This document shows, in pieces, positions 1-52,558 of a DNA stretch of 64,000 bases (position 1 is its first letter; each line of letters starts with the position of its first letter). The stretch is from an uncultured Gemmataceae bacterium (lineage in GTDB: Bacteria > Planctomycetota > Planctomycetia > Gemmatales > Gemmataceae): the NCBI GenBank assembly GCA_963815035.1, contig CAWFFC010000026.1, positions 97,587 to 161,586 of the forward strand, given 5' to 3'. The notes below the pieces were generated by a model. It did not search any database, was not told where the DNA came from, and worked only from the letters and a program-made list of their open reading frames with translations. The position numbers and the translations under genes were made by a program.

Positions 1-2543
1 TCCCTGATCGATTTGATAAATCAAGTCGCCAAGCTTGATCGGGTCGCCCTGAACGGCCAGGCCGAGCGTTTGCTGCCAGCGAATCTCGCCGGACTTGGCA
101 TCGACCGCCGTCGCCAACCAGGCCGGCGGCGACGTGGTCTGCGTCACCACGAACAGGGTCTTGCGATCGTCGCTGACTTGCGCCGCATGCAAGGGCGTTC
201 CCAGTTTCAAAGGAGCGGGCCAACGCAGCGCCAGCCGCCTTCCCTCTTTTCGGTCGAAACCCATGGTTTCGTAGATCAACTCGCCATGTGCGATGTACCA
301 AAAATCATTTTCTTCCGCGTGCACCACCAGTCCGCGGCCCTCGCGAACGCTGCCCTCCTTTGGCTGCTCCATGATCAATGAAAACATCGCCGGATCCTGA
401 TTGTCCTTTTGATTGATTCCCAACAAGGCGAAGGCGCCAGCGTCCGTCACGACCGCGATTTTTTCCTGATCGCAAACCGGCGGGAACCAGGACCAGCCGG
501 GCAACGGCGCCTCGACGCCGGGAATCGCCCGGGCAGTCTGGTCGAGTTTGCCGGGAATTTCGAAGGAACGCAATTTCATGGCGTTGAAGCCGTCGCTCAC
601 CGGCAGGATCAAATAGGAAATTCCGACCGGCTGTCCGGCGTCGTCCACACCGCCGACGACGACCGGCTCGCCGCGAAGCGACCCGGGCCCGTGATTGGTC
701 GCCAGCATCGCCACCATCGCCAGCGGTTGCTCTTGCCGGGTGTCGAGGACATAAACGTTTTGACTGTCCGCGGGCAGGAAAATCAGGCCCGACGATTCCT
801 GCTTGGCCGCGCCGGGGCCGAGTCGCTGGCCGACCGAAATCTGGCCCCGGATGCTGCCATCGCTCGACTCCATCACCACGACCGTTCCGTTGTCATCGGT
901 CAGCGGCACGTAAAGCCGACGCTCCATGTAGATTGGTTGTCCGCGGATCGGGAAGGGAAGTTCCTGATGCCAAACAAATTTGCCGGTAAAGGCCTCGCGG
1001 GCGATCAGACCCTGGCCATTCGGCGTGGGCGCCAGGACCGTCTCGGGCGTGCGGCCGGCGGCCGGAATTCGCAGCGGCAATCCGGCCGAATCGATGCCGA
1101 TTCGGGTGGCCCAGAGGATCTTGCCGCGCGATTGCGACAGCGCATAAAGCACTCCGCGCGACGCGGCGAACACCACCTTGTTGTCGTCCACCTTGGCGTC
1201 GGCATTCGCGCCGATCAGCAACGAAACCAGTCCAGCGACCGGCTCCGACTTCGGCGGAACGTCGGCCGCCACAAACACGATCCGCGCGAATTTTCGCCTC
1301 CGCGCTGTCGAATCGGTCGATCACTTCCGGCTTCGAACCGTAGCCCAGACGATTGGCATTGGTTCTCAAAACGGTCAATTTCGCCGGGTTCAATTCCTTG
1401 GCCAGATCGGCGTCGAGTTCGGAGATGAAGTCTCGATACTTCTCGCCCTCCTCGATCGCGTCATTCAACTTGGCATATTCCTGCGACAATTCGGCCGGAA
1501 CCGACGGTTGGATATTCGGTGGGGAATATCGGTTGATATAAGCCTGCGTCTCGACTGCCTTTTTGTAATCGCGTCGCGCCGCCACAAAGTCCTTTTCCGC
1601 GCCGGCAATGTCCTTCTTGGCGTCACGAATCTGATCCTCGGCGATGCGAATCAGTGCATTACGAATCTCGTCCTGCCGCTCGGTGACCGCGCTTTTGTTC
1701 GGGTCCTCGCTCTTGTCGAAGCTGATCAAATACGTGGTGAAATCGTTGAGGCGCTTGCTCGCCTCGTCGCTCGGATTGGTCGCGTTTTCCATGGCCCGGC
1801 AGAAATCGCGGAGCAACCGGTATTTGCTGAGGTCCTTGCTGTTTGGATAGCCCTTCAGCAGATCATCGTACTGTTGGGAGGCCTGCCGATATTTCTTGCC
1901 GCTGATCAATTCATTGGCTTCCTTTGCCAACTCGGTTTCCCGGCGTTTGTGGCTTTGTTTGTAAACCAGTAATCCGGCGATCATGCCGACGACGACTAGA
2001 ATCAGCATCCCCACGATGGCGACTGGAATCCAGCGGCGCTTGGGCCGGTGGTAGCCATGCAAGTACGAGTCGTAGTCGGCGCCGGCGTCGTCCGCCTCGG
2101 TGACCTCGTAAACCTCCTCGACGATCTCGGCCTCGGCCGGGAGGGTGTAGTCGTCGCCGTTGGTGATCTGCGGCGCCAGGCCCATAAACGCCAGGACCTC
2201 GTCGGCGCTGGCGCGATCCTCGGCGGCCGCGGTGGGCTGTTCAATCGGCCGCGACGCGGCGGGCTGCCGTACGGGCGGGGGCGGCATTTTTGACCAGTCC
2301 GCCTCAGGTGACGCTTCCATTCGCGCCGGCGTCACTTCTTCCACATCGTTTTCGAACGTGGGCGCCCGGCGATCCCGCGGAGTGTTTTTCACTGCGCACC
2401 GGCGCGTCCGCGACCCCGGGGGCCTCCCGAACCTCAAAAACCTCGCGGCATGCCTTATTCGTGCAACGAATTCGTTGGCCGATCAGGGCGGAATCAAATT
2501 GATAACGATTCTGGCACTTCGGGCACAGAGCATTGATCTGCAC
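1..2543 (-). CDS. Membrane-anchored PQQ-like beta-propeller (BamB-like) protein with an N-terminal MJ0042-type zinc ribbon; the C-terminus runs off the left edge. Two apparent frameshifts, near 1270 and 2420, so it may be a pseudogene
   Basis: ORF 2304..2543(-) starts MQINALCPKCQNRYQF..RCTNKACREVF, a C-x2-C...C-x4-C zinc ribbon. ORF 893..2437(-) has an acidic linker, a TM helix (WIPVAIVGMLILVVVGMIAGLLVY) and a helical region. A manual reverse translation of 1..1290 in a third frame gives a coherent propeller sequence (..VVFAASRGVLYALSQSRGKILWAT..AVDAKSGEIRWQQTLGLAVQGD..) with no stop before position 1. The opposite-strand ORFs 13..381 and 409..1428 are R-rich junk. Confidence 0.55.
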
Positions 2544-17145: not shown

Positions 17146-20100
17146 CTACTCCCCCGCGGCGGGCTCGATCTGAATCGAAAGCGGCTCGATCCATTGCTTG
17201 GCGTCGCTGGTGTAGTAGAGATAGGCCCGGCTGGCTGGCCCGCGATATTCGCCAGGGATGTCGGCGAGCAGGTCAATCGCCAGGTCCAATTTGGCGCCCG
17301 GCTTCGAGCGCTCGCCAGTAGAGCACCAGTTCCCGGCCGCGAATTTCGAAGAAGCTGATATCGCCCGGCAGCAACTCGCCGTTATCGGCCTTTCGCAAGG
17401 TGGCCATTTCCTTCAGTTGCTTCATGTCCTCGGGCACTTTCAGCCCTGCGGGCAAGCCGATCACGGCGACAGTCATCGGCTGGCCCTTGTCCTGGCTCAG
17501 GTTTTCGAGCGACACGTTGAGCCGCACGCCATCGCCCTCGCGGACCTGCCGCTTGTTCAGCTTGGTCGAAAGTTTAACGGCACATTTGTCGGAACTGTTG
17601 GGCGTAATCGCCGAGTAACTCCACCCGATCGTGTAGGGGTACTTGTTCTTGCCAATCAATTCGAGCTTCAACGAGTTCTTGCCCGTTTTCATGAACTGTT
17701 CCGAGTTCTTCACTAGGATCGTGACTGGTTCCTGTCTGCCGGCCGGGAAGGGCATTTGTTCGACAACCTTCCCATTGATTGCAAGGACGAGCACGCCCGC
17801 TTCGGCGGTCTGCTTGCTGGCTTTGGTGTATGCGATCAGCGCCTTGAGCGCCATGATGGTCGATTGCGTCGAACCGAAGCCCCCGTAACCGCCGCGCTGC
17901 TTGTTGATCCACTTCACGGCCTTTTGCAGGCATTGGGTGAATTCCGCCGGCCGGTTCGCCTTCATCCAGCCGAGCATGGCCAGGGCGGTGGTTTCGATTT
18001 GCAGATCGCGGCCGCCGGAGCGGGTGATGCTGGTCTCGGCGCCGGTGAGGCCGCCATCCTCGACTTGCTTGTCGCGAACGCGCTTGAGCAATTCGACGGC
18101 TTGTTTGGCCCGATCGGCCCCATTGCTGTTGAGCAGGGCGTTCGCCAAAAGCGACAGGAAATAAGGATCGGTCGAGTTCGAATGTTCGTGAAGGAGCTTG
18201 TCGATATCCTTGGTCATGTCCTCCTTGCCGGTCTCGGTCAGGGCCCAGACGATGTAGGCGTCGGTGATGTGCTGCGGGGCGCCGCCAAACGAATCGAGCG
18301 CCCGCGGGTTTCGCTCGAAGCCGCCCTCGGGCTTGTGCCGGCTGAGTAAGTACTTTCGTGTCCGTTCGAGCATCTGCTGATCAACCGGATGGACCTGGGC
18401 CATGTCCTTGAACTGCAAAAGGCCATAGGCGGTGAGCGCTTCGTGCGGCGGGGCCATGCCGCCAAACCACTCGTAGCCCTGACGTCCGCCGCCCTGCTTC
18501 TGGCATTCGAACGATGTGAGCCGTTGATAACCGCGGTCCAGCAATTCGCTGGCGCCTGCGCCGCCTGTTTCGCTTCCTTGGTTTCCTGGCCCGATTCCTT
18601 GATGTAATTCAGAATCAGCGTGTTGGGATAATTCGTGGTCGAAGTCTGTTCGAAGCAGCCATAGGGCTCGCGCAATAGGCTTTCCAAGCCCTTTTGCAAA
18701 TCGGCGAGGGTTGATGGGTAGATGCTCGCCCAAACGCTTAAGGAACCTTTCACGTAATCCTTGGGCAGGATCATTTCGTTCTCAGCCACTTTTTCGAGCA
18801 GATCGCTGGCTTGGCCGACATACGGGAAGCCATCGGGCACGATCTTGATCGGCGCGTGACCTGGTCCTCGGCGAACGGTTCGCTTCGGCCGAGAATCGTC
18901 AAGCCTCCGTCGCCTTCGATCAGTGATGGCTGCAATTGGATCACGCGCCGGGTTCGTTTGTTCGGCGGCAGCACGATCGAAGCGGCGGCGCTGCCGCTGA
19001 CAAGGTTGAAGCCTCTCGGCTGCACGGTGACGTTCGCCGCACGTTGCTCGTCCGAATCGTTGGTGATCAGCACCGGGATCGACAGCTTGTCGCCCGCGGT
19101 GACCTCGGCGGGAAGCTTGGCTTCCAGTCCAAACGGCTTGCGCACTTCGAGAATGTGCGTGTCGGCGCCGAGCCGGCCTTCGAGCGTATGCCCCGCGACC
19201 AATACGCGATACTTGGTGATCGAGTCAGAAACATTGAAGCTGATTTTCCCCACGCCAGTTTTGTCGAGAATCAGGGCGGGGTTCCAATAGACGGTCTCGG
19301 CGAAATCGCTACGCTGGCCGGAATTACGTTCGGTATTGATGTGAGCATATTCGCGAACAATGAACGGCTCGGGGGCGGGCATTGACTTGGCATTGCCAAA
19401 TCCGGCTCCGCGGCCGCGGAATCCGCCTCCGGGCAACCCCTGAGCGGGACCGCCGATTCCGCCGCCGCCGAATCCGCCCGCCCGAAGGGGGCGCCGGGCG
19501 CGGGCAAAGCGCCGCCCCGATTAATCCCGCCCATCACGCCACCCTGGGCGAATCGCCGATCTTGGAAACGACCATTGGCTAGTCCGCCCTTGGCTTCATT
19601 CAATTTCCGTTCGAATTCGGCTTCGGCAGCCTGCCGTTGCATAAGCTGCTTGTCTTGCTCACGAAGTCCTAGGGCTTTCTTGGCCATCGCCTCTGGCCTG
19701 ACAAACATTAGACGATTTTCATTCGCACGACGCAGACGATCGATTCCTTGCTCCTGTTTCTCATCAAGGTTGAAGGCACGCGGGAAATTGTCCCGCTTTC
19801 CGGCGGCCTCATTGGGCTTGCCCGGCGCGTTCGTGGGCGCCGCCTGCGCATCCAAAGCGGCCTTGTCCCGGCGCGGTTCCGGCGCAGCCGGTGCGAGTGG
19901 GGCGGCGCCAAGTCCGCCACCTATGCCCCGGCCTCGTAGCTTTCCATCCTTAGCGCCATCGAATTTCGCCGCTGCCTCAGGCAGACCCTCGGCCTCTTTG
20001 CGAAAGTCATTCGGAACGGCCATCGGCGCCGCCGCGCCTTCGACCAACCGATTGCTCTGGCCCGACTTCAAGAAGGCATCGTTTTTCGCGATAAGTTTCC

Positions 20101-23100
20101 CATTGGAGTCGTTGCTCGAAATGGCAAAGCCGATCAGCAGCAGAGCGCCGACGGTGATCGAGCCAGCCGCCGTCACATAATACGGCACGCCGGCCCTCGC
20201 GCCGCGAAAGGCTCCCAGCAACAGCGACACCACGGCGAGCAAGATCGCCGCGCCTGCCAGGGTTGGCACGATGGCGGCCCGTATCCGCGAATTGACGTCG
20301 TCGTAAGGGACCAACGCCAACGCCGCGGCCTGATAATCATGTTCACGCTTCCGAATCTCGGCATCCGTTGCTTGCAATTGCTTGGGAAACTCCGAATCTT
20401 CAGCCGCCGCGAGATTCTCAGTGACCGCGTCCTTCAGCCGCTCTTCCAATTCCTTCATTTTCGGCTGAAACTCGCCTTCGATTTCCTGCTGGCGATGGGC
20501 CAGACTGCTAACCATTCTCTCGCCCGATTGTCCCATCATCACCAGGATGCGTTCGGCGTCTTCGTGGCTGCGTTGCCGGAACTTGTTCGGATCCTGTTCG
20601 GCGAATCGCCGCCAGCCTTGCGTACCGAGAAGCAGATCAAGGGCCAGCGGCGCCTTCGGATGATCGGTCAGCAGGAAGTCGGCGTATTCGAGATGCTCGG
20701 GCTTGCGCACCTCGCCGACAAACATGAAATGCGTCGGCAGCATTCGCGCCGTCTTTTCGTCGGCCATCGTGATGACGGTTTGATTCACCACCGACGCGCC
20801 GACGATGGCCTGCGCCGGCTGGCCCTTCTCGTCAGCCGCCGTGAGCGTGACGGTGGCCTTTTCGCCCGGAGCGTAGCGGCTCTTATCCGGGGTCATGGTG
20901 AATTTGACGGCTTTGCCCGATTTGCGAAACACCAGCCGCTCCGCCACCGGTGCATAAACCTGGCTGGCGGCCGGATTCCGCTGCTCAAAGACGGTGACGC
21001 GAATCACGCCGCCGATGTCGTTGGGCGGTTTCAATTCGACAATCGCGGGTTTGCCGGGCTGCGTCTGCACGCGCTGATGGTCGAGCATGCGTCCGCGGCA
21101 GTAAGCGCCGACATAGAGATTGCGAGCCGGACCGGTCGCAAAAAGTTCGGCGCGGATCGACTGGCCGGCGCTGGTGACGCCGGTCGGCACGCGCAGCACC
21201 ACGCCCTCGCTTTTCACTTCGGGCAGGGGGATCGTTTGGGAAATGCCCGCTGGTTGATCGACCTTGAAAACGTATTTTTCGCCTGCTTTGGGCGTGAATT
21301 CAAACAGACCCAGACCGTGATTGACGCCACGCTCCTTCGCATCATTGAGCGTTTCGACCTTGACGATCTCGCCGCCCTTGGCATCGAGAACGCGCCCTTT
21401 GAGTTCGGCGGGTTTGTCGAGCGGAGTCGTGGCCCGGAAGTAGACGCGGTTGGGCAGTCCGGCGACCAGGTCGCCGCCTTCGGCGAAAAACTTCACGAAC
21501 ATCTTGTTCACGATAATCGGGATCGGCTTTTGAATCGACTCGGTGGCGCCGCCATCGCTAAACGTCACCGTTAGGCTGGCCGACCCTTTGTCAATTTGCT
21601 TGGGCAGGGTGAACCGGACGCTGACCTGGCCCAAGGCGTTCGTTGCGCCATCGGCTCGTGCGGGGATCATTTTGCCATCGACGTTGGCTTCGGCGGCGAC
21701 GACCGGCCGATTCGCCAGCGGGCCTGATTCATTCCAGATCTTGCAATTGGCGACGACTTCCTCACCCGCCCCATAGGTCTTCTTGTGAAAATCCAGTTCC
21801 TTGTTAATCCGGTCGGGCGTGTACTTGTTGACGATGAACTTGCGCTTTTCTTCGGCGAAGCGGTTGTTCAATTCGCGCACGCTGAGCGTATATTCGCCGC
21901 CCGGGAAATCGGGGGCGTCCGGCAGTCGATACGCGCCGGCGCCAATGCCTCGGATGGGCTTGCCGTCCGGGCCGAGAATCGGCTTCGGCGCCTGGCCGGG
22001 GGCCTCTTGCACGCGCGGCTGAGTCGCGCCGGCCATCGAAAAGATCTGTGCCCCCTGCGGATTCGTGATCCGGTATTCGGCGTGGAAATCCTCGGCCGGC
22101 GGCTGCAGCGTGCCGCGATTGAGCGTCAGCGACCGGAAGTAAACTGTTTCGCCCGGCTTGTACATCGGCTTGTCGGTCGTCAACTCGGTGACATAGCGAG
22201 GCGCGGCCCACGACAGCCGCACGTTTTTCAATTCGCTGGGAATTCGGCCTTCCGACGAAGCGCTGACCTCGAGCGACAAATCGGCGTTCGACTTGAACGA
22301 CAGGCTTGGGGGCAAATTGACCTGATACATCCCCTCGCTATGGAAATCATCCTGCCAAACGACGTGATTTTGACCGTCCATGAGTTTAAAGGTAATTCGC
22401 GACGAGACCGTCGAACCATCGGTCACGCGTTTCGTGGTGACGTGGAACGAATTCGGGGCGCCCGGTTGAATCGCCGGCGGGCCGGTCACTTCCAGCAGCA
22501 AGCGATTGTCCCGAATCTGCTTCATGGCCGCCGCCATCGTCTCGTCGTGCTTTTGTTGAAGTTGGCGGATCTGGCCGGCGACGTCCTCGACCTTGGCGCC
22601 GGCGGCCGCCACCTTCGCCTTGTGCTCGGCCAGCAGTTTTTGGTGTTCGTCGGTGGCCCGGCCCAGCTCGACATCCGCGGCGGCAGCCACACTCCGAGCA
22701 TGCACGTATCCCGAAACATGCTTCGCGGTGGGATACGATAGAACGCCGGCGGTCAAGAGGGCGCAGATTGCCGCCGCCCATCGAACAATGGTTCGCATCG
22801 ATCGTTTCGGCGCCTGGGCTGGCGCGGCGGAAATCGGCTGGACTGCAGCCTTTTCGGCGCTGCCGGGCGGTTCGAACCGGACCGTGGGAAACTCGATCCG
22901 CGCGGCCGCGGCGAGCAACTCGCGGGCGCGATCCAGTTCCAGCCGCGCTTCCGGATGCGCCGAAACATACGCCTCGATCTCGGCGACATCCGGCGCATCG
23001 GCCAGTTCGTACAGGTAGTCGAGCAACAGTTCGCGGAAGCGTTCGTGACTGATCATGACCAACTCCAACCCGATTCTTCCATCTTCGTGGTCGACTCGCT

Positions 23101-23116
23101 CCGCAAGTCGCTGCAA
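17146..23116 (-). CDS. Giant ECF anti-sigma-like N-terminus fused to an alpha-2-macroglobulin-like protein (MG domains, thioester GCFEQ, receptor-binding C-terminus), with at least 4 frameshifts; it could also be two adjacent genes
   Basis: ORF 19271..23116: cytoplasmic anti-sigma-like segment, TM, MG2-like domains (YKPGETVYF..), then a ~350-aa hydrophobic/low-complexity insert. ORF 18771..19436: MG domain. ORF 18238..18840: ..REPYGCFEQTSTTNYPN.. thioester. ORF 17273..18733: TED domain. A manually found C-terminal frame ..AKLDLAIDLLADIPGEYRGPASRAYLYYTSDAKQWIEPLSIQIEP.. ends at 17146. Confidence 0.6.
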
Positions 23117-26842: not shown

Positions 26843-30239
<3,397 letters not shown>

Positions 30240-30343: not shown

Positions 30344-33300
30344 ATGCATCGTGAATTGTCAAACGTCGATGAGGCGCTCGCCCCGCCGCGGACCGCCGGG
30401 CTCTATCTCGTCACCGGGATTCTGGTGGCGCTGGTTGCCCGCGATCTCTGGCCCGACATCGCCAATTGGCTCAATTCGTTTGGTCTCGATCTGCCCATCT
30501 ACTCCAACGTAGCGTTTCGCCTGACCTGGAAATGGCTCGGGGCCGATTTCAGCGTTCGTTACGCGCTCATCGCCGCGGCGATCGGCTTCGTGCGCATCGC
30601 CGTCGGCTCGACCGACAACCTGCTCGAGGGCAAGGTCGGCGCCGATGTCGCCATCGCGATCGCCTGCCTGGCCGCGATCCTGATCAATGAGCCGCTGGTC
30701 GCGGCCGAGGTCGTCGTCATCGGTCTTATTGGCGAATGCCTCGAAAGTTTCACCTTCAATCGAACCCAATCGGCGATTCGCAAACTCGCCGAACTGTTTC
30801 CAATTCGCTGCTGGGTGTTGCGCGATGGGCAGGAAGCCCGCGTGCTGGTGCAGGAGGTTCAGGTCGGCGATCGGGTCGTGGTCAAGCCCGGGGCGAAAGT
30901 GCCGGTCGATGGCGTCGTCCGCGAGGGGCAGTCGGCGGTGGACGCCAGCGCGCTCACCGGCGAAAGCCTGCCGGTCGACAAGAAACCGGGCGACGAGGTG
31001 CTCGCCGGCAGCGTCAATCAATTCGGCGCGCTCACCATCGAGGCGACGCGGGTTCGCGAACAGACCGTCGCCGGCCGCGTCATGGAACTGACCGCGCAGG
31101 CGCTCAAGGAAAAGGCCCCCATCGAGCGGCAAGCCGACCAATGGGCCCGCTGTTTCCTGCCCGTGGTGCTAGGCCTCGCCGCGATCACGTTCGTCGCCAA
31201 CGTGCTTTGGTACATCGGCCCGCTTCGCGCGGTTGATATGCGGCTGAGCCTGGGCGCGGCGGCGCGGGTGAGTGTTTATCCGACGCTCGCGGTGCTGGTC
31301 GTGGCCTGCCCTTGCGCGCTGATTCTCGCCACGCCCGCGGCGGTCATCGCGGCGCTGGGCCGCCTGGCCGGCACCGGCGTGCTGCTCAAAAGCGGCGCCG
31401 CGCTCGAACGTCTCGCCGCGGTGAAGGCGTTCGCCTTCGACAAGACCGGCACTCTTACCGAGGGCAAACTGGAACTGGGTGACATTCTTACCCTGAATCC
31501 ATCGATTTCCGCCGACGAGTTGCTGCGCCTCGCCGCCAGTGCCGAGCAATCGAGCGAGCATCCGATCGCTCAAGTGATTTTGAGCGCGGCCCGGACGCGA
31601 AATCTGAACCTCGACCCGATCGAAGAATTCGTCGCCAAGCCGGGCGCGGGCGTTCAAGCACGATCAGCCGGAAAATCACTCTTCGTGGGCACGAGGCGAC
31701 TGCTCGAAGAGCAGGGGATTGCCGTTTCGCCCGAAGCCGCTGAACTTTTAAATCGACTCGAGAACGACGGTCAGACGCCGTTGCTCGTCGCCAGCGACGG
31801 AAAAATCCTCGGTGCGATCGGCGCCCGCGATCGGCTCCGCCCGGAAGCCTACGGCGTGCTGAGCGAACTTCGTGAAATCGGCATCGCCGATTTCATGCTG
31901 CTCACCGGCGACCGCGCCGCCGTCGCCAATAAGATCGCCTCCGAACTTGGTATTGGCCGAGTTCACGCTGAACTTCTCCCAGCGGAAAAAGCTCAATTCC
32001 TCGAAGGCCGAGTGCCGACAGCCTTCGTCGGCGACGGCATCAACGATGCCCCGGCCCTCGCCCGCGCGTCGGTGGGGCTGGCGATCGGCGCCGGCTCGGA
32101 CATCGCCGCCGAGGCCGGCGACATCGTGCTCATGGGCGATCCCTTGCGGCCGATGCCGCTCTTGGTTCGGTTGTCACGGCGAACCGTCGAAATCATTCGC
32201 CAAAACATTCTCGTGTTCGCGTTTGGCGTCAACCTCGTCGGCATCGCACTCACCGGCTGGGTATGGCCGCTGCTTTCCAAGTCGCCCGGCTGGATCGAAA
32301 AGGCCCCGCTCGCCGGCGTGATCTATCACCAGATCGGCTCGCTGCTGGTGCTCTTGAACTCGATGCGGCTGCTGACCTTTGAACGTGCCGCGATGAAAAA
32401 GTCGTCGCATCGAATGAAAAGCCTGCTGATCATGACCGACCGCTGGATCGACAAGCTCACGAATACGGATGAGCTACTGCACGATTTGGCCCATCGCTGG
32501 AAGCCGATCGCGGCGATCGTCGCGGCAATCGGGCTCATTGTCTACGCCCTCAGCGGCGTAGCCTCCGTCGGACCCGACGAGGTGGCGGTAGTGCGGCAGT
32601 TTGGCCGGCCGCTTGAAAACGACCTGGAGCCCGGTTTGCATTGGCGCTGGCCCTACCCGGTCGAGGAGGTTATTCGCATCAAACCCGCCCAGGTGCGAAC
32701 GGTCGAAGTCGGCTATCGAATCGTCCGCGAACCGTCGCTAAAGCCGGGTGAAAAGAGCACGGCGTCAACTTGGCTCAGTCAGCACGAAGGCGAGGGCGTG
32801 CTGCGACTCGCCGAGGAAGCCCAGATGCCGACCGGCGACGGCAATCTCATCGAAATTCAGGCGACGCTGCAATTCCGCGTCCGCCAGCCGCGGCGGTATC
32901 TGCTGGAGGTAAAGGATCCCGACGAAATCCTGCGCTCGTCCCTCGAGGCGGTGTTGCGCGAATCAGCCGCCGGCGAGAACTTCCTGGATCTGCTCACCCA
33001 CCGACGCGCCGATTTTCAACGCGAGGCGTTTGTGCGCTTGAAAGCGCGGTTGGAGTCGCTGGGCGATTCGAATTTGGGCGTGACGCTCGAAGGCCTGTCG
33101 CTGCGCGATTTGCATCCACCGCCTGACGTCGTCGATTCCTTTCACAAGGTCGCGCGGATGGCCGAAGAACACGACCAGCGGATCAAGGATGCCGAGGCCG
33201 ACGCGTTGCGGATGCGCCGGGCCGCCGAGGCTGAGTCGACCAAAACGGTGGACGATGCTCAGGCCGCCGCGAACAAAACCATCACCACGGCGGAAACCGA

Positions 33301-33658
33301 GCGCGGCGCCTTTCTCGCCTGGCACAAAGTGCGCAACGAACTCAGCCCCGCCGTCGAATCGCGGCTGAGGGCGGAGACTCAAAGGCGGATCGCGATGGGC
33401 GTCGATTCGACCAGCGCCATGCTCGACCTGCAGCGCCGGCGACGCGAGCAACTGGAATTGCAGAAGTTCCTGATCGATTTTCGCCTGACCTGGGATGCGC
33501 TGGCCCAGACCTTGAGCCAACGCGACAAAGTGTTCATTGATGCGGACAAACTGCCGGGCCGCCGCACGCTGATGCTCTTCGGCCCGGATCAACTCACGCC
33601 GCCGCCGATCATCCTGCCAAATCGCGGCCCGATCCCGCGCTCGGATGAAGAGCGATGA
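30344..33658 (+). CDS. P1B-type (heavy-metal) P-type ATPase without an N-terminal HMA domain, fused to a C-terminal TM anchor plus SPFH/band-7 (HflK/HflC-like) domain
   Basis: Intact 1104-aa ORF. CPC TM6 motif (VVACPCALILATPAA), DKTGTLTEG, SEHPIA, GDGINDAPAL. After ~residue 740: ..VAVVRQFGRPLENDLEPGLHWRWPYPVEEVIRIKPAQVRTVEVGYRI.. band-7 core, followed by a coiled-coil tail. Confidence 0.85.
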   Translation: MHRELSNVDEALAPPRTAGLYLVTGILVALVARDLWPDIANWLNSFGLDLPIYSNVAFRLTWKWLGADFSVRYALIAAAIGFVRIAVGSTDNLLEGKVGADVAIAIACLAAILINEPLVAAEVVVIGLIGECLESFTFNRTQSAIRKLAELFPIRCWVLRDGQEARVLVQEVQVGDRVVVKPGAKVPVDGVVREGQSAVDASALTGESLPVDKKPGDEVLAGSVNQFGALTIEATRVREQTVAGRVMELTAQALKEKAPIERQADQWARCFLPVVLGLAAITFVANVLWYIGPLRAVDMRLSLGAAARVSVYPTLAVLVVACPCALILATPAAVIAALGRLAGTGVLLKSGAALERLAAVKAFAFDKTGTLTEGKLELGDILTLNPSISADELLRLAASAEQSSEHPIAQVILSAARTRNLNLDPIEEFVAKPGAGVQARSAGKSLFVGTRRLLEEQGIAVSPEAAELLNRLENDGQTPLLVASDGKILGAIGARDRLRPEAYGVLSELREIGIADFMLLTGDRAAVANKIASELGIGRVHAELLPAEKAQFLEGRVPTAFVGDGINDAPALARASVGLAIGAGSDIAAEAGDIVLMGDPLRPMPLLVRLSRRTVEIIRQNILVFAFGVNLVGIALTGWVWPLLSKSPGWIEKAPLAGVIYHQIGSLLVLLNSMRLLTFERAAMKKSSHRMKSLLIMTDRWIDKLTNTDELLHDLAHRWKPIAAIVAAIGLIVYALSGVASVGPDEVAVVRQFGRPLENDLEPGLHWRWPYPVEEVIRIKPAQVRTVEVGYRIVREPSLKPGEKSTASTWLSQHEGEGVLRLAEEAQMPTGDGNLIEIQATLQFRVRQPRRYLLEVKDPDEILRSSLEAVLRESAAGENFLDLLTHRRADFQREAFVRLKARLESLGDSNLGVTLEGLSLRDLHPPPDVVDSFHKVARMAEEHDQRIKDAEADALRMRRAAEAESTKTVDDAQAAANKTITTAETERGAFLAWHKVRNELSPAVESRLRAETQRRIAMGVDSTSAMLDLQRRRREQLELQKFLIDFRLTWDALAQTLSQRDKVFIDADKLPGRRTLMLFGPDQLTPPPIILPNRGPIPRSDEER

Positions 33659-33670
33659 CTCGCGAAGACC

Positions 33671-33730
33671 ATGGGGACAAGCCCCGTGGCTCGTAAACTC
33701 TTGATTTGCGAGCCACGGGGCTTGTCCCCG
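33671..33730. terminator. Bidirectional perfect hairpin (21-bp stem) between two convergent genes
   Basis: GGGGACAAGCCCCGTGGCTCG-taaactcttgatttg-CGAGCCACGGGGCTTGTCCCC. Confidence 0.55.
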
Positions 33731-33742
33731 TGGAACTCATTC

Positions 33743-34321
33743 TCAATGGATGCGATACATCCCGTAGCTGAATCCAACGGTCGGGCGATACACCGGCGGC
33801 GGCACCACGACGACCGGCGGCGGCGGGGCATACGGATCGACATAGACTGCCCGCGGGCCGCGACGCAGATACATGGTGTTCTGCATCTCGGTAATCACGG
33901 CGTCGCTCACGCCATTGTCATGCAGCCAGGAGATTTGCGACGGCCCGAGATTGTAACGCGTGCCGCTCTGGCGGATCTGATTGCGGATGACCTCATCGCC
34001 AAGGCCCTTCTTGGTCATGTCGACAATGTCTTCCAATCGGAGTGTGCCTTGCACGGGTTGAGCGGCGTAGGCTTGCGCCTGCTCGATCTTCTTTTCGCGG
34101 GCATCCTCGGCGTTGCCCGTGACTCCGCCGAGCACCGCGCCGGCGGTGGCGCCGATCGCGGCGCCTTCACCTGGGTGGTGTCGATCGATCGCGGCGCCCA
34201 TCAGTCCGCCGATCACGCCGCCGCCCAGCGCGCTGCGCTGCGTGTTATTCATCGATTCGCAGCCGGACATGAACATCGTGCCGGCAATCATAACCGCGGC
34301 CATTTTCCATGTCTTGCCCAC
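33743..34321 (-). CDS. Lipoprotein with a glycine-zipper region and a Pro/Val-rich tail
   Basis: Signal peptide with lipobox (..GTMFMSGC); GGGVIGGLMGAAI.. glycine zipper; ..PPPPVVVVPPPVYRP..; the opposite-strand ORF 33671..34366 is R/H-rich. Confidence 0.6.
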   Translation of the reverse strand: MGKTWKMAAVMIAGTMFMSGCESMNNTQRSALGGGVIGGLMGAAIDRHHPGEGAAIGATAGAVLGGVTGNAEDAREKKIEQAQAYAAQPVQGTLRLEDIVDMTKKGLGDEVIRNQIRQSGTRYNLGPSQISWLHDNGVSDAVITEMQNTMYLRRGPRAVYVDPYAPPPPVVVVPPPVYRPTVGFSYGMYRIH

Positions 34322-34412
34322 GTTCCCCTCCTACCGGCGGGATCGCCGGTACAACTCGGCTCATAGCGGCGGGCCCGGCTCGATGTCAAGCGACTTCCGC
34401 CGAAGTGACCTT

Positions 34413-50764: not shown

Positions 50765-52223
50765 TCATTTCGCCAACTCGCGCTCCGTCCGTTCGATCAA
50801 TTCCCTCACCGGCCATTCACGGCTCCCGGCGGTCAGGCGTTCGTCGTCCTGGAGCCATTGCCGAACCTTTTTCTCGGCAGCTACGGCGGCGCTGTGGCTC
50901 TTGCCGCCAAAAAACTTGCTGATCTCGCCGAACGACGCCGCCGTGTGCTTGCGGCTCAGATAAATCGCCAGCATGCCGCGGATGGCTCACGGCCCAGCTG
51001 CGCTCCTTGCCCTGCAACGTGCCGGCGGGCAATTGCAACACCTGACGCACCGCCGCATCCACATCGACCAGGCGAACCACGCGTACGGCGTGTCGCAGCA
51101 AGTCGCCCAGCGCTTCGCGCGCCAACTCGCGATCGATCGCCCGCCCGGTGACCCGGCTGAAATGCCGCAGCGAATGAATCGCCCCCTCCAGTTCGCGGAC
51201 GTTGCCGCGCAAATGTTCGGCCAAATAGGCCAACACATCGTCCGCCAGCGGGGCGGCCCCGTTCGCCGACGATTTGGTTCGCAGCAGCAATTGTCGCGAC
51301 TCGCCGTCGGGCGGTTGCAAGCCCCAAATCGCGCCGCCCAGCAGCCGGTCCATCAGTTCCGGCCCGAAATCATCATTGAGCCGCGGATGGCAGTCGCAGC
51401 TAAGCACCAGTTGTTTCCCCTCGGCGATGAGCGCGTCGAATGTGTGCAGGAATTCCTCCTGCGTCGCCCGTTTCCGCGCCAGGAAATGCAAATCGTCGAG
51501 CAACAACACGTCGCCGGAACGGAAATACTTGCGGAACGCGGCCTGCTTGCCGAAGCGAATTGCCGTCACGCAGCGATTGGTGAAATCCTCGGCGGTGACA
51601 TAGATCACTTTCAGTTCGGGATAGCGCCGGCGGATGCCCGCGTAAATCCCCTCGAGCAAATGCGTCTTTCCGGTTCCCACCGGGCCGTGCAAAACGAGCG
51701 GATTCGGCCCTTGCCCCGGCTCCTCGACGACGCTCATCGCCGCGGCATACGCGACTCGATTGCACGACCCGACCACGAATTCGCCGAGGTGATGCCAGCG
51801 GCGTTTCGGAAGGTCCGGCTTGTCGGCCTTGGGCTTCGCGCTGAATAAATCGGGCGGAACTTCGGTCTTGGTTTTGGCGTTCGGTTCGGCGTCGACGGCA
51901 GCTTGCTTTTGTTCGGCCCGCAGGGCCTGGAATAATCGCGGCTCAATGCGAAAACGCACCTGCACCGGCCGGTCGAACATCTCGGCGACGGTCTGGCGAA
52001 TCGGATCGCCAAGAAGTTTTTGAATCCAATTGAGGAAATGGAGATTGGGGACGCCGACGATCAGGCAATCGTCGTCCAGTTCGAAAACGGACCGGTCCTT
52101 CAGCCACAGATCGTAGCGATTCTGACCGATCCGATCGATCAGCAGCGGCGTCAGCACCGCGGCGAAATCATCCGCCGGGGCCGGATTTCCACGCTGCTCG
52201 ACGCGTTCAACTCCAAACGGCAT
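50765..52223 (-). CDS. dnaA: Chromosomal replication initiator DnaA, one frameshift near 50970
   Basis: AAA+ Walker A LVLHGPVGTGKTHLL, ..VLLLDDLHFL.., sensor ..SCDCHP..; domain IV HTH in ORF 50765..50974 (MLAIYLSRKHTAASFGEISKFFGGKSHSAAV). Confidence 0.85.
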
Positions 52224-52558
52224 CGGCACGGAGCATCCCCTCTTGCGCACCTTGCAAAGGGCGAGCGATGATCGCGCAAGAGAGGTCGATTAGATGCCGA
52301 GGAGCGGAAGGGAGTCCGTTCCGGCGGCGAAAACTCGGAGAAGCGATCCTATTGCGGCGCGCGGCCGAATGCCAGAGCAGTTTTCTCGAAATCCTCACAC
52401 AGGCAACGACCTGCCCAGGCGCGATCCGCCAAAAGCGCGGCCGACGCCGCGCCAGTGCATCGGGAAAAGCAGGCGAATTCGTCGCCTTGCGCGGTTGCGA
52501 CTAAAAATCTCAGCTGCGATCAAGTTCCGCACTCAAGTCAACCGCAGCTGGGGAGACG

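What the first reader, a model, noticed from the sequence alone, without database searches (positions are those of the whole stretch)
30344..33658. P1B-type ATPase fused to a C-terminal SPFH/band-7 (HflK/HflC-like) domain
This is a single intact 1104-aa ORF. Residues 1-~700 are a heavy-metal-type P-type ATPase (CPC, DKTGT, HP, GDGINDAP) with no N-terminal HMA/CxxC metal-binding domain. After one further TM helix comes a complete band-7/SPFH core (VAVVRQFGRPLENDLEPGLHWRWPYPVEE..) and a long coiled-coil tail. SPFH proteins normally act as separate scaffolds for membrane microdomains or proteases. A covalent fusion to a transporter is not a standard architecture, and it suggests self-scaffolding or regulated clustering of the pump. 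The neighbouring lipoprotein and M16 peptidase genes may be functionally linked.
Basis: partly seen in the sequence, partly recalled or inferred. Interest (0 to 1): 0.6.

Follow-up and report, generated by a model that had tools for sequence, protein, structure and literature searches.

The report
Metal pump fused to HflK scaffold
One intact gene encodes a heavy-metal P-type ATPase joined through an extra membrane helix to a complete HflK-type scaffold protein. The fusion is conserved in hundreds of Planctomycetota and Acidobacteriota lineages, usually next to HflC and HflK partner genes, which suggests that metal exporters are built-in subunits of SPFH membrane cages.

Summary
Window 30344-33658 (+) is one intact 1104-aa ORF. 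It contains a complete P1B-type ATPase (aa 1-~680, all catalytic motifs, CPC, no HMA domain), a cytoplasmic linker, a ninth TM helix and a full HflK-like SPFH protein.

It is not a missed stop. More than 240 clusters at 90% identity carry the same architecture in Gemmatales, Isosphaerales, Planctomycetaceae and Acidobacteriota, and every segment is under purifying selection.

The conserved context is different. In about 70% of Gemmatales loci and most others examined, the fusion is followed by an hflC-like gene and usually a second hflK-like gene. The window's own clade lacks these next to the gene.

The closest SPFH relatives include CDF metal exporters fused to HflK in the same three-gene module. 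The metal site (CPC, invariant N, H-Q/E-x-x-S) fits neither the CopA nor the ZntA signature, and its M6 motif resembles P1B-4.

Best reading: a divalent-metal exporter built in as a subunit of an HflK/HflC-type periplasmic scaffold. I found no paper describing it. The closest unfused analogue is the Zur-regulated hmtA-PA2437-PA2439 cluster of P. aeruginosa.

The parts
30344..33658 (+). Whole fusion gene, 1104 aa plus stop codon
   Evidence: It is a single ORF, and the best 120 clusters at 90% identity show the same three-domain architecture.
30344..30379 (+). Conserved N-terminal segment MHRE..(H).D..F (aa 1-12). It is cytoplasmic and is a possible short His-containing metal-binding or regulatory tail that stands in for an HMA domain.
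   Evidence: M1, H2, R3, E4 and F12 are at least 90% conserved in alignment A3. 130 of 257 full-length relatives start with MHRE, and divergent members have His-rich N-termini. The function is inferred.
30395..30790 (+). TM helices MA, MB, M1 and M2 (aa 18-149)
   Evidence: Hydropathy and AF2 helices 18-44, 73-94, 100-113 and 117-149. E122 in M2 is conserved in 234 of 258 sequences.
30794..31369 (+). Actuator domain plus M3-M4 (Pfam E1-E2_ATPase, aa 151-342), including TGES at 205-208
   Evidence: G206 and E207 are invariant, 258 of 258.
31307..31315 (+). CPC metal-binding motif in M4 (aa 322-324)
   Evidence: C322 and C324 are invariant, 258 of 258.
31421..32068 (+). P and N domains (Pfam Hydrolase, aa 360-575), with the phosphorylated Asp in D366-KTGT, HP at 406-407 and GDGINDAP at 563-570
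   Evidence: DKTGT, H406, G563, G565, N567 and D568 are invariant, 258 of 258.
32153..32377 (+). M5-M6 (aa 604-678) with metal-site residues Q620, N621, N630, H662, Q663 and S666. In Gemmataceae there is also a Trp-rich periplasmic M5-M6 loop.
   Evidence: N630 and H662 are invariant, 258 of 258. Position 663 is Q in 237 and E in 21. S666 is present in 253. M6 aligns with the HEGST motif of the P1B-4 pump sCoaT, 7qbz.
32378..32497 (+). Cytoplasmic helical linker (aa 679-718), rich in K/R, with H713 and H717 conserved within Gemmataceae
   Evidence: AF2 helices 681-717. H713 is invariant and H717 at least 90% conserved in A3, but neither is conserved outside Gemmataceae. This is the least constrained segment, with dN/dS 0.36-0.45.
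32498..32563 (+). Ninth TM helix (aa 719-740). It corresponds to the signal-anchor helix of HflK.
   Evidence: Hydropathy peak at 722-740, H = 2.43. It aligns with the E. coli HflK TM helix.
32564..33205 (+). SPFH/Band_7 domain (aa 741-954), predicted to be periplasmic
   Evidence: Pfam E = 2e-23. E. coli HflK 7vhp/7vhq, E = 6e-19. dN/dS is 0.13-0.31, similar to the ATPase part.
32702..32806 (+). Insertion of about 35 residues in SPFH1 (aa 787-821) that carries the W810-x3-H814 motif and is specific to the transporter-fused subfamily
   Evidence: It is absent from E. coli HflK and from the operon's second HflK, and present in both ATPase-fused and metagenomic CDF-fused forms. W is present in 257 and H in 256 of 258 sequences. 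It starts next to the residues that align with the E. coli HflK FtsH-contact residues R141/E142. pLDDT is low over 797-816.
33122..33517 (+). Coiled-coil region (aa 927-1058), including an insert of about 40 aa specific to Gemmataceae
   Evidence: AF2 helices 927-998, 1002-1017 and 1022-1058. Alignment to the E. coli HflK CC region.
33518..33655 (+). C-terminal segment 'DKVFIDADKLPGRRTLMLFGPDQL' (aa 1059-1104). It aligns with the HflK C-terminal segment 'RKVLVNDKGGNLMVLPLDQ'.
   Evidence: Alignment. D1066 is present in 237, G1072 in 225 and R1074 in 220 of 258 sequences. A role in closing an oligomer is inferred from HflK/C structures.

Best explanation
The gene encodes a catalytically competent P1B-type transition-metal pump. 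Its cytoplasmic C-terminus runs through a roughly 40-residue linker and a ninth TM helix into a full-length HflK paralogue (SPFH1/2, coiled coils, C-terminal segment) that lies in the periplasm.

Shown:
- The domain content, the intact motifs and purifying selection on both halves.
- Conservation of the fusion across two phyla.
- Frequent operon linkage to an HflC-like and a second HflK-like gene.
- A parallel family in which a CDF metal exporter occupies the same N-terminal position in the same three-gene module.

Inferred:
- The HflK moiety co-assembles with HflC and HflK paralogues into an HflK/C-type ring or cage. In this genome the partners would be encoded elsewhere, or the protein would assemble with itself.
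- The pump is therefore a covalently tethered subunit or client of an SPFH membrane microdomain. This would cluster several pumps and place them next to whatever the cage encloses, which by analogy is FtsH.
- Transport is most likely export of a divalent metal (Zn2+, Co2+, Fe2+ or Cd2+ type) from cytoplasm to periplasm, not Cu+.
- The subfamily-specific periplasmic loop (W810, H814) and H924 on the SPFH domain may contact the pump's exit side, FtsH or the exported metal.
For: Architecture and integrity. Foldseek top hits are LpCopA, ZntA (TM-score 0.87 on the target) and sCoaT.

The fusion is real and conserved:
- All of the best 120 clusters carry the three domains.
- 115 of the 120 best clusters in the search started from P0211 carry them, and the other five look like fragments. 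They come from Acidobacteriota, Isosphaeraceae (including cultured Tautonia sociabilis) and Planctomycetaceae.
- 146 matches were found in a collection of one genome per species.
- dN/dS is 0.13-0.33 in the ATPase, SPFH and coiled-coil parts.
- In 258 full-length members CPC, DKTGT, N630 and H662 are invariant.

HflK identity:
- The best PDB hit is E. coli HflK, covering TM, SPFH and CC.
- It clusters with HflK, while gene 2 of the operon clusters with HflC.
- The C-terminal segment aligns with HflK.

Partner genes:
- Of 54 Gemmatales loci with at least 2.5 kb downstream, 37 have an hflC-like gene. In 36 of these it starts 3-440 bp after the fusion and in one it starts 1.4 kb after. 29 also have a second hflK-like gene.
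- The gene 2 proteins tested pass the HflC equivalog cut-off (153-170 bits against 134).
- The same triad occurs in Tautonia, Bryobacteraceae and other loci.
- Eight loci have only fusion plus hflC, which mimics the canonical hflK-hflC pair.

Module logic:
- Among the 150 closest representatives at 50% identity of the SPFH part, 70 are ATPase fusions and 12 are CDF (PF01545)::SPFH fusions.
- The CDF fusions sit in the same K-C-K triad.
- Their CDF parts have an HxxxD + HxxxD site.

Metal site: CPC; 'VN' in M5 instead of the CopA 'YN' or the ZntA 'K'; H-Q/E-x-x-S in M6, aligned with HEGST of the P1B-4 pump 7qbz.

Precedents:
- In P. aeruginosa a P1B ATPase (HmtA) is co-regulated with three HflK/C-family genes in one Zur-controlled cluster (PMC4542158, PMC8531726, PMC11761036).
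- The P-type ATPase MgtA is a known FtsH substrate, and FtsH docks on HflK only (PMC13220708).
Against: - No hflC or hflK partner lies within the 64-kb window. The window's nearest relatives (L001-L003) and the Gemmata species also lack adjacent partners. For this gene, hetero-assembly therefore rests on partners encoded elsewhere, which could not be checked.
- No physical evidence of oligomerisation exists. Only a monomer model could be made.
- The HflK equivalog score is below its cut-off.
- The E. coli HflK FtsH-contact site (R141/E142) is disrupted by the 35-residue insertion. FtsH binding may have been lost or changed.
- Twelve pumps of about 5 nm each on one 24-mer ring is a tight fit, so the stoichiometry is unknown.
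- Metal identity and transport direction rest on motifs and analogy only. HmtA, the only experimentally studied pump linked to HflK/C genes, was reported to be an importer, and its sequence could not be obtained for comparison.
Confidence: 0.6

Rival explanations
1. Homo-oligomeric self-scaffold. The fused SPFH and coiled-coil tail makes rings of the fusion protein alone. It clusters pumps without HflC, a second HflK or FtsH.
For: The window and 17 of 54 Gemmatales loci have no adjacent SPFH partners. P0139 is also solitary. From my own knowledge, other SPFH proteins such as stomatin, QmcA and the flotillin-like proteins form homo-oligomeric cages. The Gemmataceae fusions have an extra coiled-coil insert of about 40 aa.
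Against: The majority arrangement in every lineage examined is the three-gene K-C-K module, with overlapping or closely spaced genes. The moiety is HflK-like, and E. coli HflK and HflC depend on each other for stability (stated in PMC13220708). Partners could simply be encoded elsewhere in this genome.
Confidence: 0.2
2. A tether for turnover control. The HflK moiety exists mainly to hold the pump beside FtsH, so that pump abundance is set by regulated proteolysis. The pump is a permanent FtsH substrate or client rather than a scaffolded machine.
For: FtsH binds HflK/C through HflK only. HflK/C is proposed to raise the local substrate concentration around FtsH. The P-type ATPase MgtA is a known FtsH substrate (PMC13220708). 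R864, which aligns with the FtsH-contact residue R185 of HflK, is conserved.
Against: The R141/E142-equivalent site is interrupted by the insertion. No ftsH gene is linked in the window or in any of the loci whose gene content was examined. A covalent fusion would also drag the scaffold subunit itself into degradation.
Confidence: 0.25
3. An HmtA-like importer. The pump brings Zn/Cu into the cytoplasm under metal limitation, and the SPFH proteins are part of an uptake complex.
For: The only studied case of a P1B ATPase linked to three HflK/C-family genes is the Zur-regulated hmtA cluster. It is induced by Zn depletion, and HmtA expression raises cellular Zn and Cu.
Against: The same module slot is filled by CDF transporters, which are exporters from the cytoplasm (established knowledge of the family). 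The import claim for HmtA is itself described as needing confirmation (PMC10393844). Homology of this pump to HmtA could not be tested. The Aquibium module sits among metal-resistance genes, including a ZntA-type pump and PCuAC.
Confidence: 0.12
4. An ordinary Cu+-exporting CopA (the JGI label) that happens to carry an accessory domain.
For: JGI names most members 'Cu+-exporting ATPase'. The best PDB sequence hit is A. fulgidus CopA. TIGR01511 (Cu) is just above its cut-off, 401 against 397. The CPC motif is present.
Against: The CopA signature residues are missing. M5 has V-N rather than Y-N, and M6 has H662...S666 where CopA has M...S. No HMA domain is present. No CopZ, CsoR or CueR gene is nearby. 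UniRef labels the Tautonia member 'P-type Zn(2+) transporter' and NCBI labels another member 'cadmium-translocating', so the labels are inconsistent.
Confidence: 0.1
5. An artefact: two adjacent genes joined by a sequencing error or a missed stop codon.
For: The window does contain genes broken by frameshifts (ileS; possibly alpha-2-macroglobulin). Local indel errors or pseudogenes therefore exist in this sequence.
Against: The same continuous architecture is found in more than 240 independent clusters from many assemblies and two phyla. The linker and TM9 are colinear in all of them. No stand-alone counterpart of the junction was found.
Confidence: 0.01

Closest known systems
E. coli HflK/HflC-FtsH complex (PDB 7vhp, 7wi3, 9cz1/9cz2)
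   Same: The C-terminal 390 residues align with HflK from the signal-anchor helix through SPFH1/2 and the coiled coil to the C-terminal segment. The topology is N-in/C-out. In relatives an HflC equivalog is encoded immediately downstream.
   Different: The disordered 79-residue cytoplasmic N-tail of HflK is replaced by a 680-residue metal pump. A 35-residue W/H-bearing insertion sits at the position of the FtsH-contact residues R141/E142. The module has three SPFH genes (K-C-K), not two. The HflK equivalog score is not reached. FtsH association is untested.
P. aeruginosa Zur-regulated cluster PA2439 (HflK family)-PA2438 (HflC)-PA2437 (HflC family)-PA2436-PA2435 (HmtA, P1B ATPase)-PA2434
   Same: A P1B-type ATPase is genetically coupled to three HflK/C-family genes and co-regulated with them by a metal sensor (PMC4542158 Table 2; PMC8531726 EMSA; PMC11761036 proteomics). 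This is the unfused counterpart of the module.
   Different: The proteins are separate. HmtA was reported to be a Zn/Cu importer induced by Zn limitation. Sequence-level relatedness to the window protein (metal-site motifs, W-x3-H loop) could not be tested, because no Pseudomonas sequence was reachable with the tools.
CDF::HflK fusions (found here; annotated only as 'HflK' in NCBI), e.g. Ca. Tritonobacter lacicola MDP8248239.1, Aquibium oceanicum plasmid WP_072608301.1, Rhizobium sp. AN80A
   Same: The design is the same: a metal exporter, one TM helix and an HflK-like SPFH protein, followed by HflC-like and HflK-like genes. The metagenomic PVC/WOR-3 forms share the W-x3-H insertion and the 'VHPP' histidine.
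   Different: The transporter is a proton-coupled CDF with an HD-HD site and no cytoplasmic C-terminal domain. The Aquibium/Rhizobium/Chloroflexi type lacks the W-x3-H loop and adds a PpiD-like rotamase gene.
P1B-4 ATPases (sCoaT 7qbz; PfeT/CtpD/PmtA Fe2+/Co2+ exporters)
   Same: M6 motif H-(E/Q)-x-x-(S/T), with the His at the position of the CopA Met and the ZntA Asp. There is no HMA domain.
   Different: M4 is CPC, not SPC. The protein has 8 TM helices (MA and MB present) rather than 6. The SPFH extension is present.
Mycobacterial PacL-Ctp 'effluxosomes' (PMC13460109)
   Same: P1B ATPases depend on a dedicated single-pass membrane scaffold, which stabilises them and clusters them into dynamic membrane platforms. 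The functional logic is the same: pump plus scaffold.
   Different: PacL (DUF1490) is small and cytoplasm-facing, binds the pump's N-terminal MBD and is unrelated to SPFH. It is not fused. No DUF1490 is present here.

Membership tests
P-type ATPase, subclass P1B (heavy-metal pumps) | Phosphorylation motif DKTGT, A-domain TGES, GDGxNDxP hinge and HP in the N domain | tested here: met
   All are present. D366-KTGT, G206, E207, H406, G563, G565, N567 and D568 are invariant in 258 homologues. TIGR01525 scores 555.8 bits against a cut-off of 346.
P-type ATPase, subclass P1B (heavy-metal pumps) | CPx/xPC motif in M4 and the 8-TM topology MA, MB, M1-M6 | tested here: met
   CPC at 322-324. There are eight helices before residue 680. 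Foldseek gives a TM-score of 0.77-0.87 (on the target) to LpCopA, ZntA and sCoaT.
P1B-1 (CopA, Cu+/Ag+) | M5 'YN' and M6 'MxxxS' ligands, usually with an N-terminal HMA/CxxC domain | tested here: not met
   M5 has V629-N630. M6 has H662 at the Met position. No HMA domain is present.
P1B-2 (ZntA/CadA, Zn2+/Cd2+/Pb2+) | M5 Lys and M6 Asp (DxG) | tested here: not met
   There is no Lys at the M5 position and H662 replaces the Asp. Compare the genuine ZntA-type pump on the Aquibium plasmid, which has '...LGLKAVF...ADTGATVLV'.
P1B-4 (Co2+/Fe2+/Zn2+ exporters) | M4 SPC, M6 HEGxT, only 6 TM helices | tested here: inconclusive
   M6 H-Q/E-x-x-S aligns with HEGST of 7qbz. However, M4 is CPC and the MA/MB helices are present. 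It works like P1B-4 at M6, but membership is not established.
SPFH / Band 7 superfamily | Match to the Band_7 profile above the gathering score, alpha/beta SPFH core followed by a coiled coil | tested here: met
   PF01145 scores 83.7 bits against 23.6. The AF2 model shows the strand/helix core at 739-924 and a long helix at 927-998.
HflK (FtsH protease activity modulator) | Score above the TIGR01933 equivalog cut-off | tested here: not met
   110.7 bits (114.8 for the isolated C-terminal part) against a cut-off of 159.4.
HflK (FtsH protease activity modulator) | Closer to HflK than to HflC, with a single N-terminal signal-anchor helix and the SPFH domain in the periplasm | tested here: met
   The best PDB hits are HflK chains. 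It lies in the HflK clade of the NJ tree. The topology follows from the pump's cytoplasmic C-terminus plus one TM helix and a K/R-rich linker on the cytoplasmic side. Topology is inferred, not measured.
HflK (FtsH protease activity modulator) | Adjacent hflC partner gene | tested here: not met
   None is present in the 64-kb window. The feature is met in 37 of 54 related Gemmatales loci and in most loci from other lineages.
HflK (FtsH protease activity modulator) | Binds the FtsH periplasmic domain (E. coli residues R141, E142 and R185) and modulates proteolysis | tested here: inconclusive
   R185 aligns with the conserved R864. R141/E142 align with R785/T786 at the edge of a 35-residue insertion. 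Binding itself is not testable with these tools.
PacL/DUF1490 effluxosome scaffold | DUF1490 protein encoded upstream of the pump | tested here: not met
   No DUF1490 hit was found in the fusion or in the neighbouring genes scanned.

The most novel reading that the evidence does not exclude
The SPFH triad forms a closed periplasmic dome, and the tethered exporters (P1B ATPase or CDF) pump metal into or next to it. This would create a confined periplasmic compartment that receives metal.

In this reading the subfamily-specific Trp/His loop (W810, H814) and H924 line that compartment. They bind or sense the exported ion, either for metallation of enclosed clients, for buffering, or for feedback on the pump.

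If so, the module would be a new functional class of SPFH assembly, with a defined transported cargo. It would also be the first natural case where the client of an SPFH cage is identified by covalent fusion.
Probability: 0.12. Interest if true: 0.9.

Novelty: new variant of a known kind. Interest (0 to 1): 0.68.

Why it matters
SPFH cages (HflK/C, prohibitin, flotillin, stomatin, erlin) now have structures. What they enclose, and why, is still largely open. The literature read here states that how HflK/C contributes to substrate recruitment 'remains open' (PMC13220708).

A conserved covalent fusion names a client outright: transition-metal exporters. Two unrelated transporter families (P1B ATPase and CDF) occupy the same slot in the same HflK-HflC-HflK module across at least six phyla or candidate phyla, including Planctomycetota, Acidobacteriota, Auribacterota, WOR-3, Pseudomonadota and Chloroflexota. 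This argues for a functional coupling between HflK/C-type scaffolds and metal efflux rather than an accident.

It offers a possible rationale for the unexplained co-regulation of HmtA with three HflK/C genes in the P. aeruginosa Zur regulon, if the two systems prove related. It also parallels the PacL effluxosome concept from mycobacteria.

Cultured hosts exist (Tautonia sociabilis, Gemmata species, Rhizobium sp. AN80A, Aquibium oceanicum), so the idea can be tested directly.

There is a practical point too. Databases label family members inconsistently as 'Cu+-exporting ATPase', 'cadmium-translocating ATPase', 'P-type Zn(2+) transporter' or just 'HflK', so the architecture is hidden from annotation-based surveys.

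Tried and rejected
1. Functional link to the neighbouring genes. tblastn of 20 window proteins against 80 related loci found no synteny for the IleRS fragment, the Gly-zipper protein or the M16 peptidase. Rejected.

2. Other conserved neighbours in Gemmatales loci (WD40, DUF1501, PSCyt2/PSD1, ABC-2, AMP-binding, FG-GAP, HD-GAF). These are common planctomycete paralogue families seen in at most 15 of 80 loci and are not specific.

3. A linked ftsH, metal regulator or chaperone. None was found in the window or consistently in related loci. Only one CDF locus has fur-feoAB upstream.

4. Obtaining P. aeruginosa HmtA/PA2437-2439 sequences for a direct comparison. This failed:
- the plasmid collection holds no Pseudomonas chromosome;
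- the last protein search, started from the Aquibium HflC, returned no Pseudomonas entry;
- Lewinson 2009 and Smith 2014 are not held.

5. Plasmid-borne hflK hits (Tistrella, Vibrio, Chondrinema). These are ordinary hflK-hflC pairs with no transporter.

6. PDB match for the C-terminal 73 residues alone. None was found, so the resemblance to the HflK C-terminus rests on the MAFFT alignment.

7. A stand-alone member of the W-x3-H subfamily (P0265). Its contig is only 1 kb, so it cannot be told apart from a truncated fusion.

8. Promoter and terminator scan around the gene. Nothing was found above the shuffled expectation.

9. The first search for related loci attempt with a 12-sequence alignment failed for lack of a conserved stretch. 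It was repeated with 5 sequences.

10. Looking up the window protein's own contig. It is not on record, so the rest of this genome could not be searched for hflC and hflK.

Full report
OBSERVATION

Window 30344-33658 (+) is one ATG-initiated ORF of 1104 codons with no internal stop. Pfam finds E1-E2_ATPase (aa 151-342, E = 9.6e-53), Hydrolase (aa 360-575, E = 5e-27) and Band_7/SPFH (aa 741-954, E = 2e-23), all far above their gathering scores.

NCBIfam gives the generic heavy-metal P1B model TIGR01525 at 555.8 bits (cut-off 346) over aa 101-676. It gives hflK (TIGR01933) at 110.7 bits over aa 741-992, below that equivalog's cut-off of 159.4. No HMA domain is detected. TGES, CPC, DKTGT, HP and GDGINDAP are all present.

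Hydropathy and an AlphaFold2 model built on 117 homologues (mean pLDDT 84.4) agree on the layout:
- eight ATPase TM helices;
- a helical, K/R-rich linker (681-717);
- a ninth TM helix (719-736/740);
- an alpha/beta SPFH core;
- a 72-residue helix (927-998), two further helices up to residue 1058, and a short C-terminal segment.

Foldseek places the N-terminal two thirds with LpCopA, ZntA (TM-score 0.87 on the target) and the P1B-4 pump sCoaT. By sequence, the C-terminal 415 residues hit only E. coli HflK in the PDB (E = 6e-19), from the signal-anchor helix through the coiled coil.

NOT AN ARTEFACT

A search of 5.8 billion proteins returned 120 best clusters (54-83% identity, nearly all 1050-1154 aa). 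Every one carries the three domains.

A second search, started from a divergent member (P0211, 31% identical in the SPFH part), returned 120 clusters. 115 of them carry all three domains, and the other five (632-792 aa) look like fragments. They include Acidobacteriota (Bryobacterales, Acidobacteriaceae), Isosphaeraceae (cultured Tautonia sociabilis) and Planctomycetaceae. One cluster member is labelled Ca. Aminicenantes.

A scan of one genome per species found 146 matches. The best 80 are all Gemmatales apart from a few oddly labelled MAGs.

In 258 full-length members, C322, C324, D366-KTGT, N630, H662, H924 and P925 are invariant. Against four relatives, dN/dS is 0.14-0.24 for the ATPase, 0.13-0.31 for the SPFH core and 0.28-0.33 for the coiled coil. 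dS is near saturation, so these values are rough, but no part is decaying.

This matters because the window does contain broken genes (see the end of this report). The fusion is not one of them.

TOPOLOGY

In every P-type ATPase the A, P and N domains are cytoplasmic, and in P1B pumps the chain ends in the cytoplasm after M6 (established knowledge, consistent with the structures matched). One further TM helix therefore puts residues after about 740 outside the cytoplasm. The nine K/R residues in the 43-residue linker agree with the positive-inside rule. This is the N-in/C-out topology of HflK. It is inferred, not measured.

CONTEXT

The window's own neighbours do not travel with the gene. None of 20 flanking window proteins is syntenic in 80 related loci.
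- Upstream is an IleRS gene split over at least four reading frames.
- Downstream, the '+' ORF 33671-34366 is spurious. The real gene is a minus-strand Gly-zipper protein at 33743-34321.
- A two-unit M16 peptidase follows.
- The window holds no second SPFH gene. No FtsH or metal-regulator domain was found in any of the window ORFs scanned.

Clustering all neighbours of the 80 loci showed one conserved partner set. Of 54 Gemmatales loci with at least 2.5 kb of downstream sequence:
- 37 have an hflC-like gene, starting 3-440 bp after the fusion in 36 of them and 1.4 kb after in one;
- 29 of those also have a further hflK-like gene;
- 8 have the fusion plus hflC only, which mimics a canonical hflK-hflC pair;
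- 17 have neither.

The window's nearest relatives (L001-L003) and the Gemmata species fall in the last group.

Both gene 2 proteins tested pass the HflC equivalog cut-off (153-170 bits against 134). Gene 3 scores as HflK, below the cut-off. A rough NJ tree puts gene 2 with E. coli HflC, and puts the fused domain and gene 3 with E. coli HflK.

The same triad follows the fusion in Tautonia sociabilis with overlapping stop and start codons, in a Bryobacteraceae MAG and in other divergent loci. One divergent member is solitary.

A SECOND TRANSPORTER IN THE SAME SLOT

An exhaustive HMMER search of 1.84 billion representatives with aa 690-1104 gave 145 hits at E <= 1e-30. Of the best 150:
- 70 carry the ATPase;
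- 12 carry a Cation_efflux (CDF, PF01545) domain in front of the SPFH part;
- 67 show the SPFH part only, and many of these look like fragments of fusions;
- one has an unrelated N-terminal region.

The named CDF::HflK fusions (about 550-610 aa) come from Ca. Tritonobacter (Auribacterota), Ca. Alcyoniella and WOR-3. They sit in the same arrangement: fusion, then Band_7 of about 295 aa, then Band_7 of about 325 aa. One of them lies directly downstream of fur-feoA-feoB.

A related but probably independent version lacks the W-x3-H loop and adds a PpiD-like rotamase gene. It occurs in three places:
- on a conjugative plasmid of Aquibium oceanicum, next to a ZntA-type pump, PCuAC and an Nramp transporter;
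- in the Rhizobium sp. AN80A chromosome;
- on a metagenomic contig that carries an HflC cluster named Caldilinea sp. by NCBI (Chloroflexi).

The HflC proteins of this version are 62-95% identical across these phyla.

The CDF parts have HxxxD in TM2 and HxxxD in TM5 in most of the 12 sequences aligned, and they lack the usual cytoplasmic C-terminal domain. From established knowledge of CDFs, an HD-HD site is typical of Zn2+-type exporters.

WHAT THE PUMP CARRIES

The ligand positions are CPC (M4), V-N (M5) and H-Q/E-x-x-S (M6). They are conserved in even the most divergent fusions. CopA would have Y-N and M...S. ZntA would have K and D, as the Aquibium ZntA-type pump shows.

M5-M6 aligns best with sCoaT, where HEGST occupies the same positions. 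P1B-4 pumps export Fe2+/Co2+/Zn2+ and use that His as an internal counter-ion (PMC10654040).

The site is therefore a CPC/P1B-4-like hybrid in an 8-TM frame that fits none of the four classical subgroups tested (P1B-1 to P1B-4). Database labels disagree (Cu+, Cd, Zn, or simply 'HflK'). Taken together with the CDF swap, a divalent-metal exporter is the most economical reading. It remains an inference.

FEATURES SPECIFIC TO THE FUSED SPFH DOMAIN

Both the ATPase-fused and the metagenomic CDF-fused SPFH domains share two features:
- an insertion of about 35 residues in SPFH1 (window 787-821) that contains W810-x3-H814;
- a histidine in 'D(L/V)HPP' (H924).

Both are absent from E. coli HflK and from the operon's second HflK. 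In 258 sequences W810, H814 and H924 are present in 257, 256 and 258.

E. coli HflK contacts FtsH through R141, E142 and R185 (PMC13220708). In the alignment these map to R785/T786, at the very edge of the insertion, and to the conserved R864.

The insertion therefore remodels the surface that HflK uses for FtsH. It could still bind FtsH, bind the pump's periplasmic face, or bind metal. The loop has low pLDDT, and its position in an oligomer could not be computed.

MECHANISM

Best-supported reading (confidence 0.6): an active P1B exporter that is a built-in subunit of an HflK/HflC-type periplasmic assembly. The HflK moiety keeps the parts that build the E. coli cage: the signal anchor, SPFH1/2, the coiled coils and the C-terminal 'KVxID..GRRxL' segment, which aligns with the HflK C-terminus. 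Its usual genomic partners are an HflC and a second HflK. The consequence would be clustering of pumps at or in an SPFH-delimited membrane patch.

The purpose of that clustering is not settled. The candidates are stabilisation and clustering as in PacL effluxosomes (PMC13460109), FtsH-controlled turnover as for MgtA, or delivery of metal into a confined periplasmic space.

For this particular gene the partners are not adjacent.

COMPARISON WITH KNOWN SYSTEMS AND NOVELTY

Both halves belong to well-known superfamilies. The combination, the three-gene module and the parallel CDF version were not found in any paper. Seven full-text searches over 8 million articles and the 2009 survey of prokaryotic SPFH proteins mention nothing of the kind.

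The nearest described system is the Zur-controlled P. aeruginosa cluster, in which the P1B ATPase HmtA is co-expressed with three HflK/C-family proteins. I could not obtain those sequences, so homology at subfamily level is untested. HmtA's reported import direction is kept as a rival explanation.

I rate this a new variant of a known kind, with interest 0.68. It is surprising to specialists in either field. It also turns 'what are the clients of SPFH cages?' into a directly testable question in cultured bacteria.

LIMITS

- There is no experimental evidence for oligomerisation, for FtsH binding, or for metal identity and direction.
- The tree is a simple NJ tree.
- dS is saturated.
- Taxon labels are those of the depositors.
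- The rest of the source genome could not be searched.

Noticed in passing
window 26916-30239 (+): The isoleucyl-tRNA synthetase gene just upstream is broken. tblastn with E. coli IleS finds its parts in at least four successive reading-frame segments (26916-27647 frame 3, 27455-28156 frame 2, 28222-28500 frame 1, 28883-29005 frame 2, 29094-30239 frame 3). Only the C-terminal 394 aa form an ORF (Anticodon_1 + DUF5915). It is either a pseudogene or a run of indel errors in the assembly.
   Followed up: partly
window 17273-23116 (-): An alpha-2-macroglobulin-like gene appears split into two ORFs: 19271-23116 (MG2 domain, 1281 aa) and 17273-18733 (TED domain, 486 aa), with a gap of about 540 bp. 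This may be a second frameshifted gene, consistent with local sequence errors or gene decay.
   Followed up: no
window 33671-34366 (+) and 33743-34321 (-): The '+' ORF after the fusion translates to an R/H/A/G-rich sequence with no family match, and its GC3 did not reach the cut-off used to pick genes. It is probably spurious. The minus-strand ORF (192 aa, GC3 0.78) has YMGG-like Gly-zipper domains (PF13441, E = 5.6e-9).
   Followed up: partly
L081 3315-9553 (Ca. Tritonobacter lacicola contig): A CDF::HflK fusion with its two SPFH partner genes lies directly downstream of fur-feoA-feoB, all on one strand. This hints at iron (or Fur-family) control of that module.
   Followed up: no
L093 7287-16534 (Aquibium oceanicum plasmid NZ_CP018172.1); L101 and L102: A four-gene module, CDF::HflK - HflC - HflK - PpiD-like rotamase (692-742 aa), occurs on a conjugative alphaproteobacterial plasmid beside a ZntA-type pump and PCuAC, in the Rhizobium sp. 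AN80A chromosome and in Chloroflexi. The HflC proteins are 62-95% identical across phyla, which suggests horizontal spread. NCBI annotates the fusion only as 'FtsH protease activity modulator HflK'.
   Followed up: partly
proteins P0005-P0120, P0286-P0402: Annotation of one and the same architecture is inconsistent across sources: 'Cu+-exporting ATPase' (JGI); 'cation-translocating P-type ATPase family protein', 'cadmium-translocating P-type ATPase' and 'FtsH protease activity modulator HflK' (NCBI); and 'P-type Zn(2+) transporter' (UniRef, Tautonia sociabilis).
   Followed up: no
window 32240-32310 (aa 633-655 of the fusion): Gemmataceae members have a periplasmic M5-M6 loop about 10 residues longer than in other fusions, with conserved tryptophans (W639, W641, P642, W650, P655). 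It is absent from the Acidobacteriota-type fusions. It may contact the SPFH domain or the membrane interface.
   Followed up: no
window 50817-52250 (-): There is a DnaA-type ATPase-domain gene (Bac_DnaA, E = 4e-46) in the window. I did not check whether it marks a replication origin.
   Followed up: no
L095 1625-7602 (Tautonia sociabilis): Directly upstream of the Tautonia fusion-hflC-hflK triad are phage-type genes (integrase, capsid, terminase small subunit, HTH_17). The module borders a prophage remnant or mobile island there.
   Followed up: no
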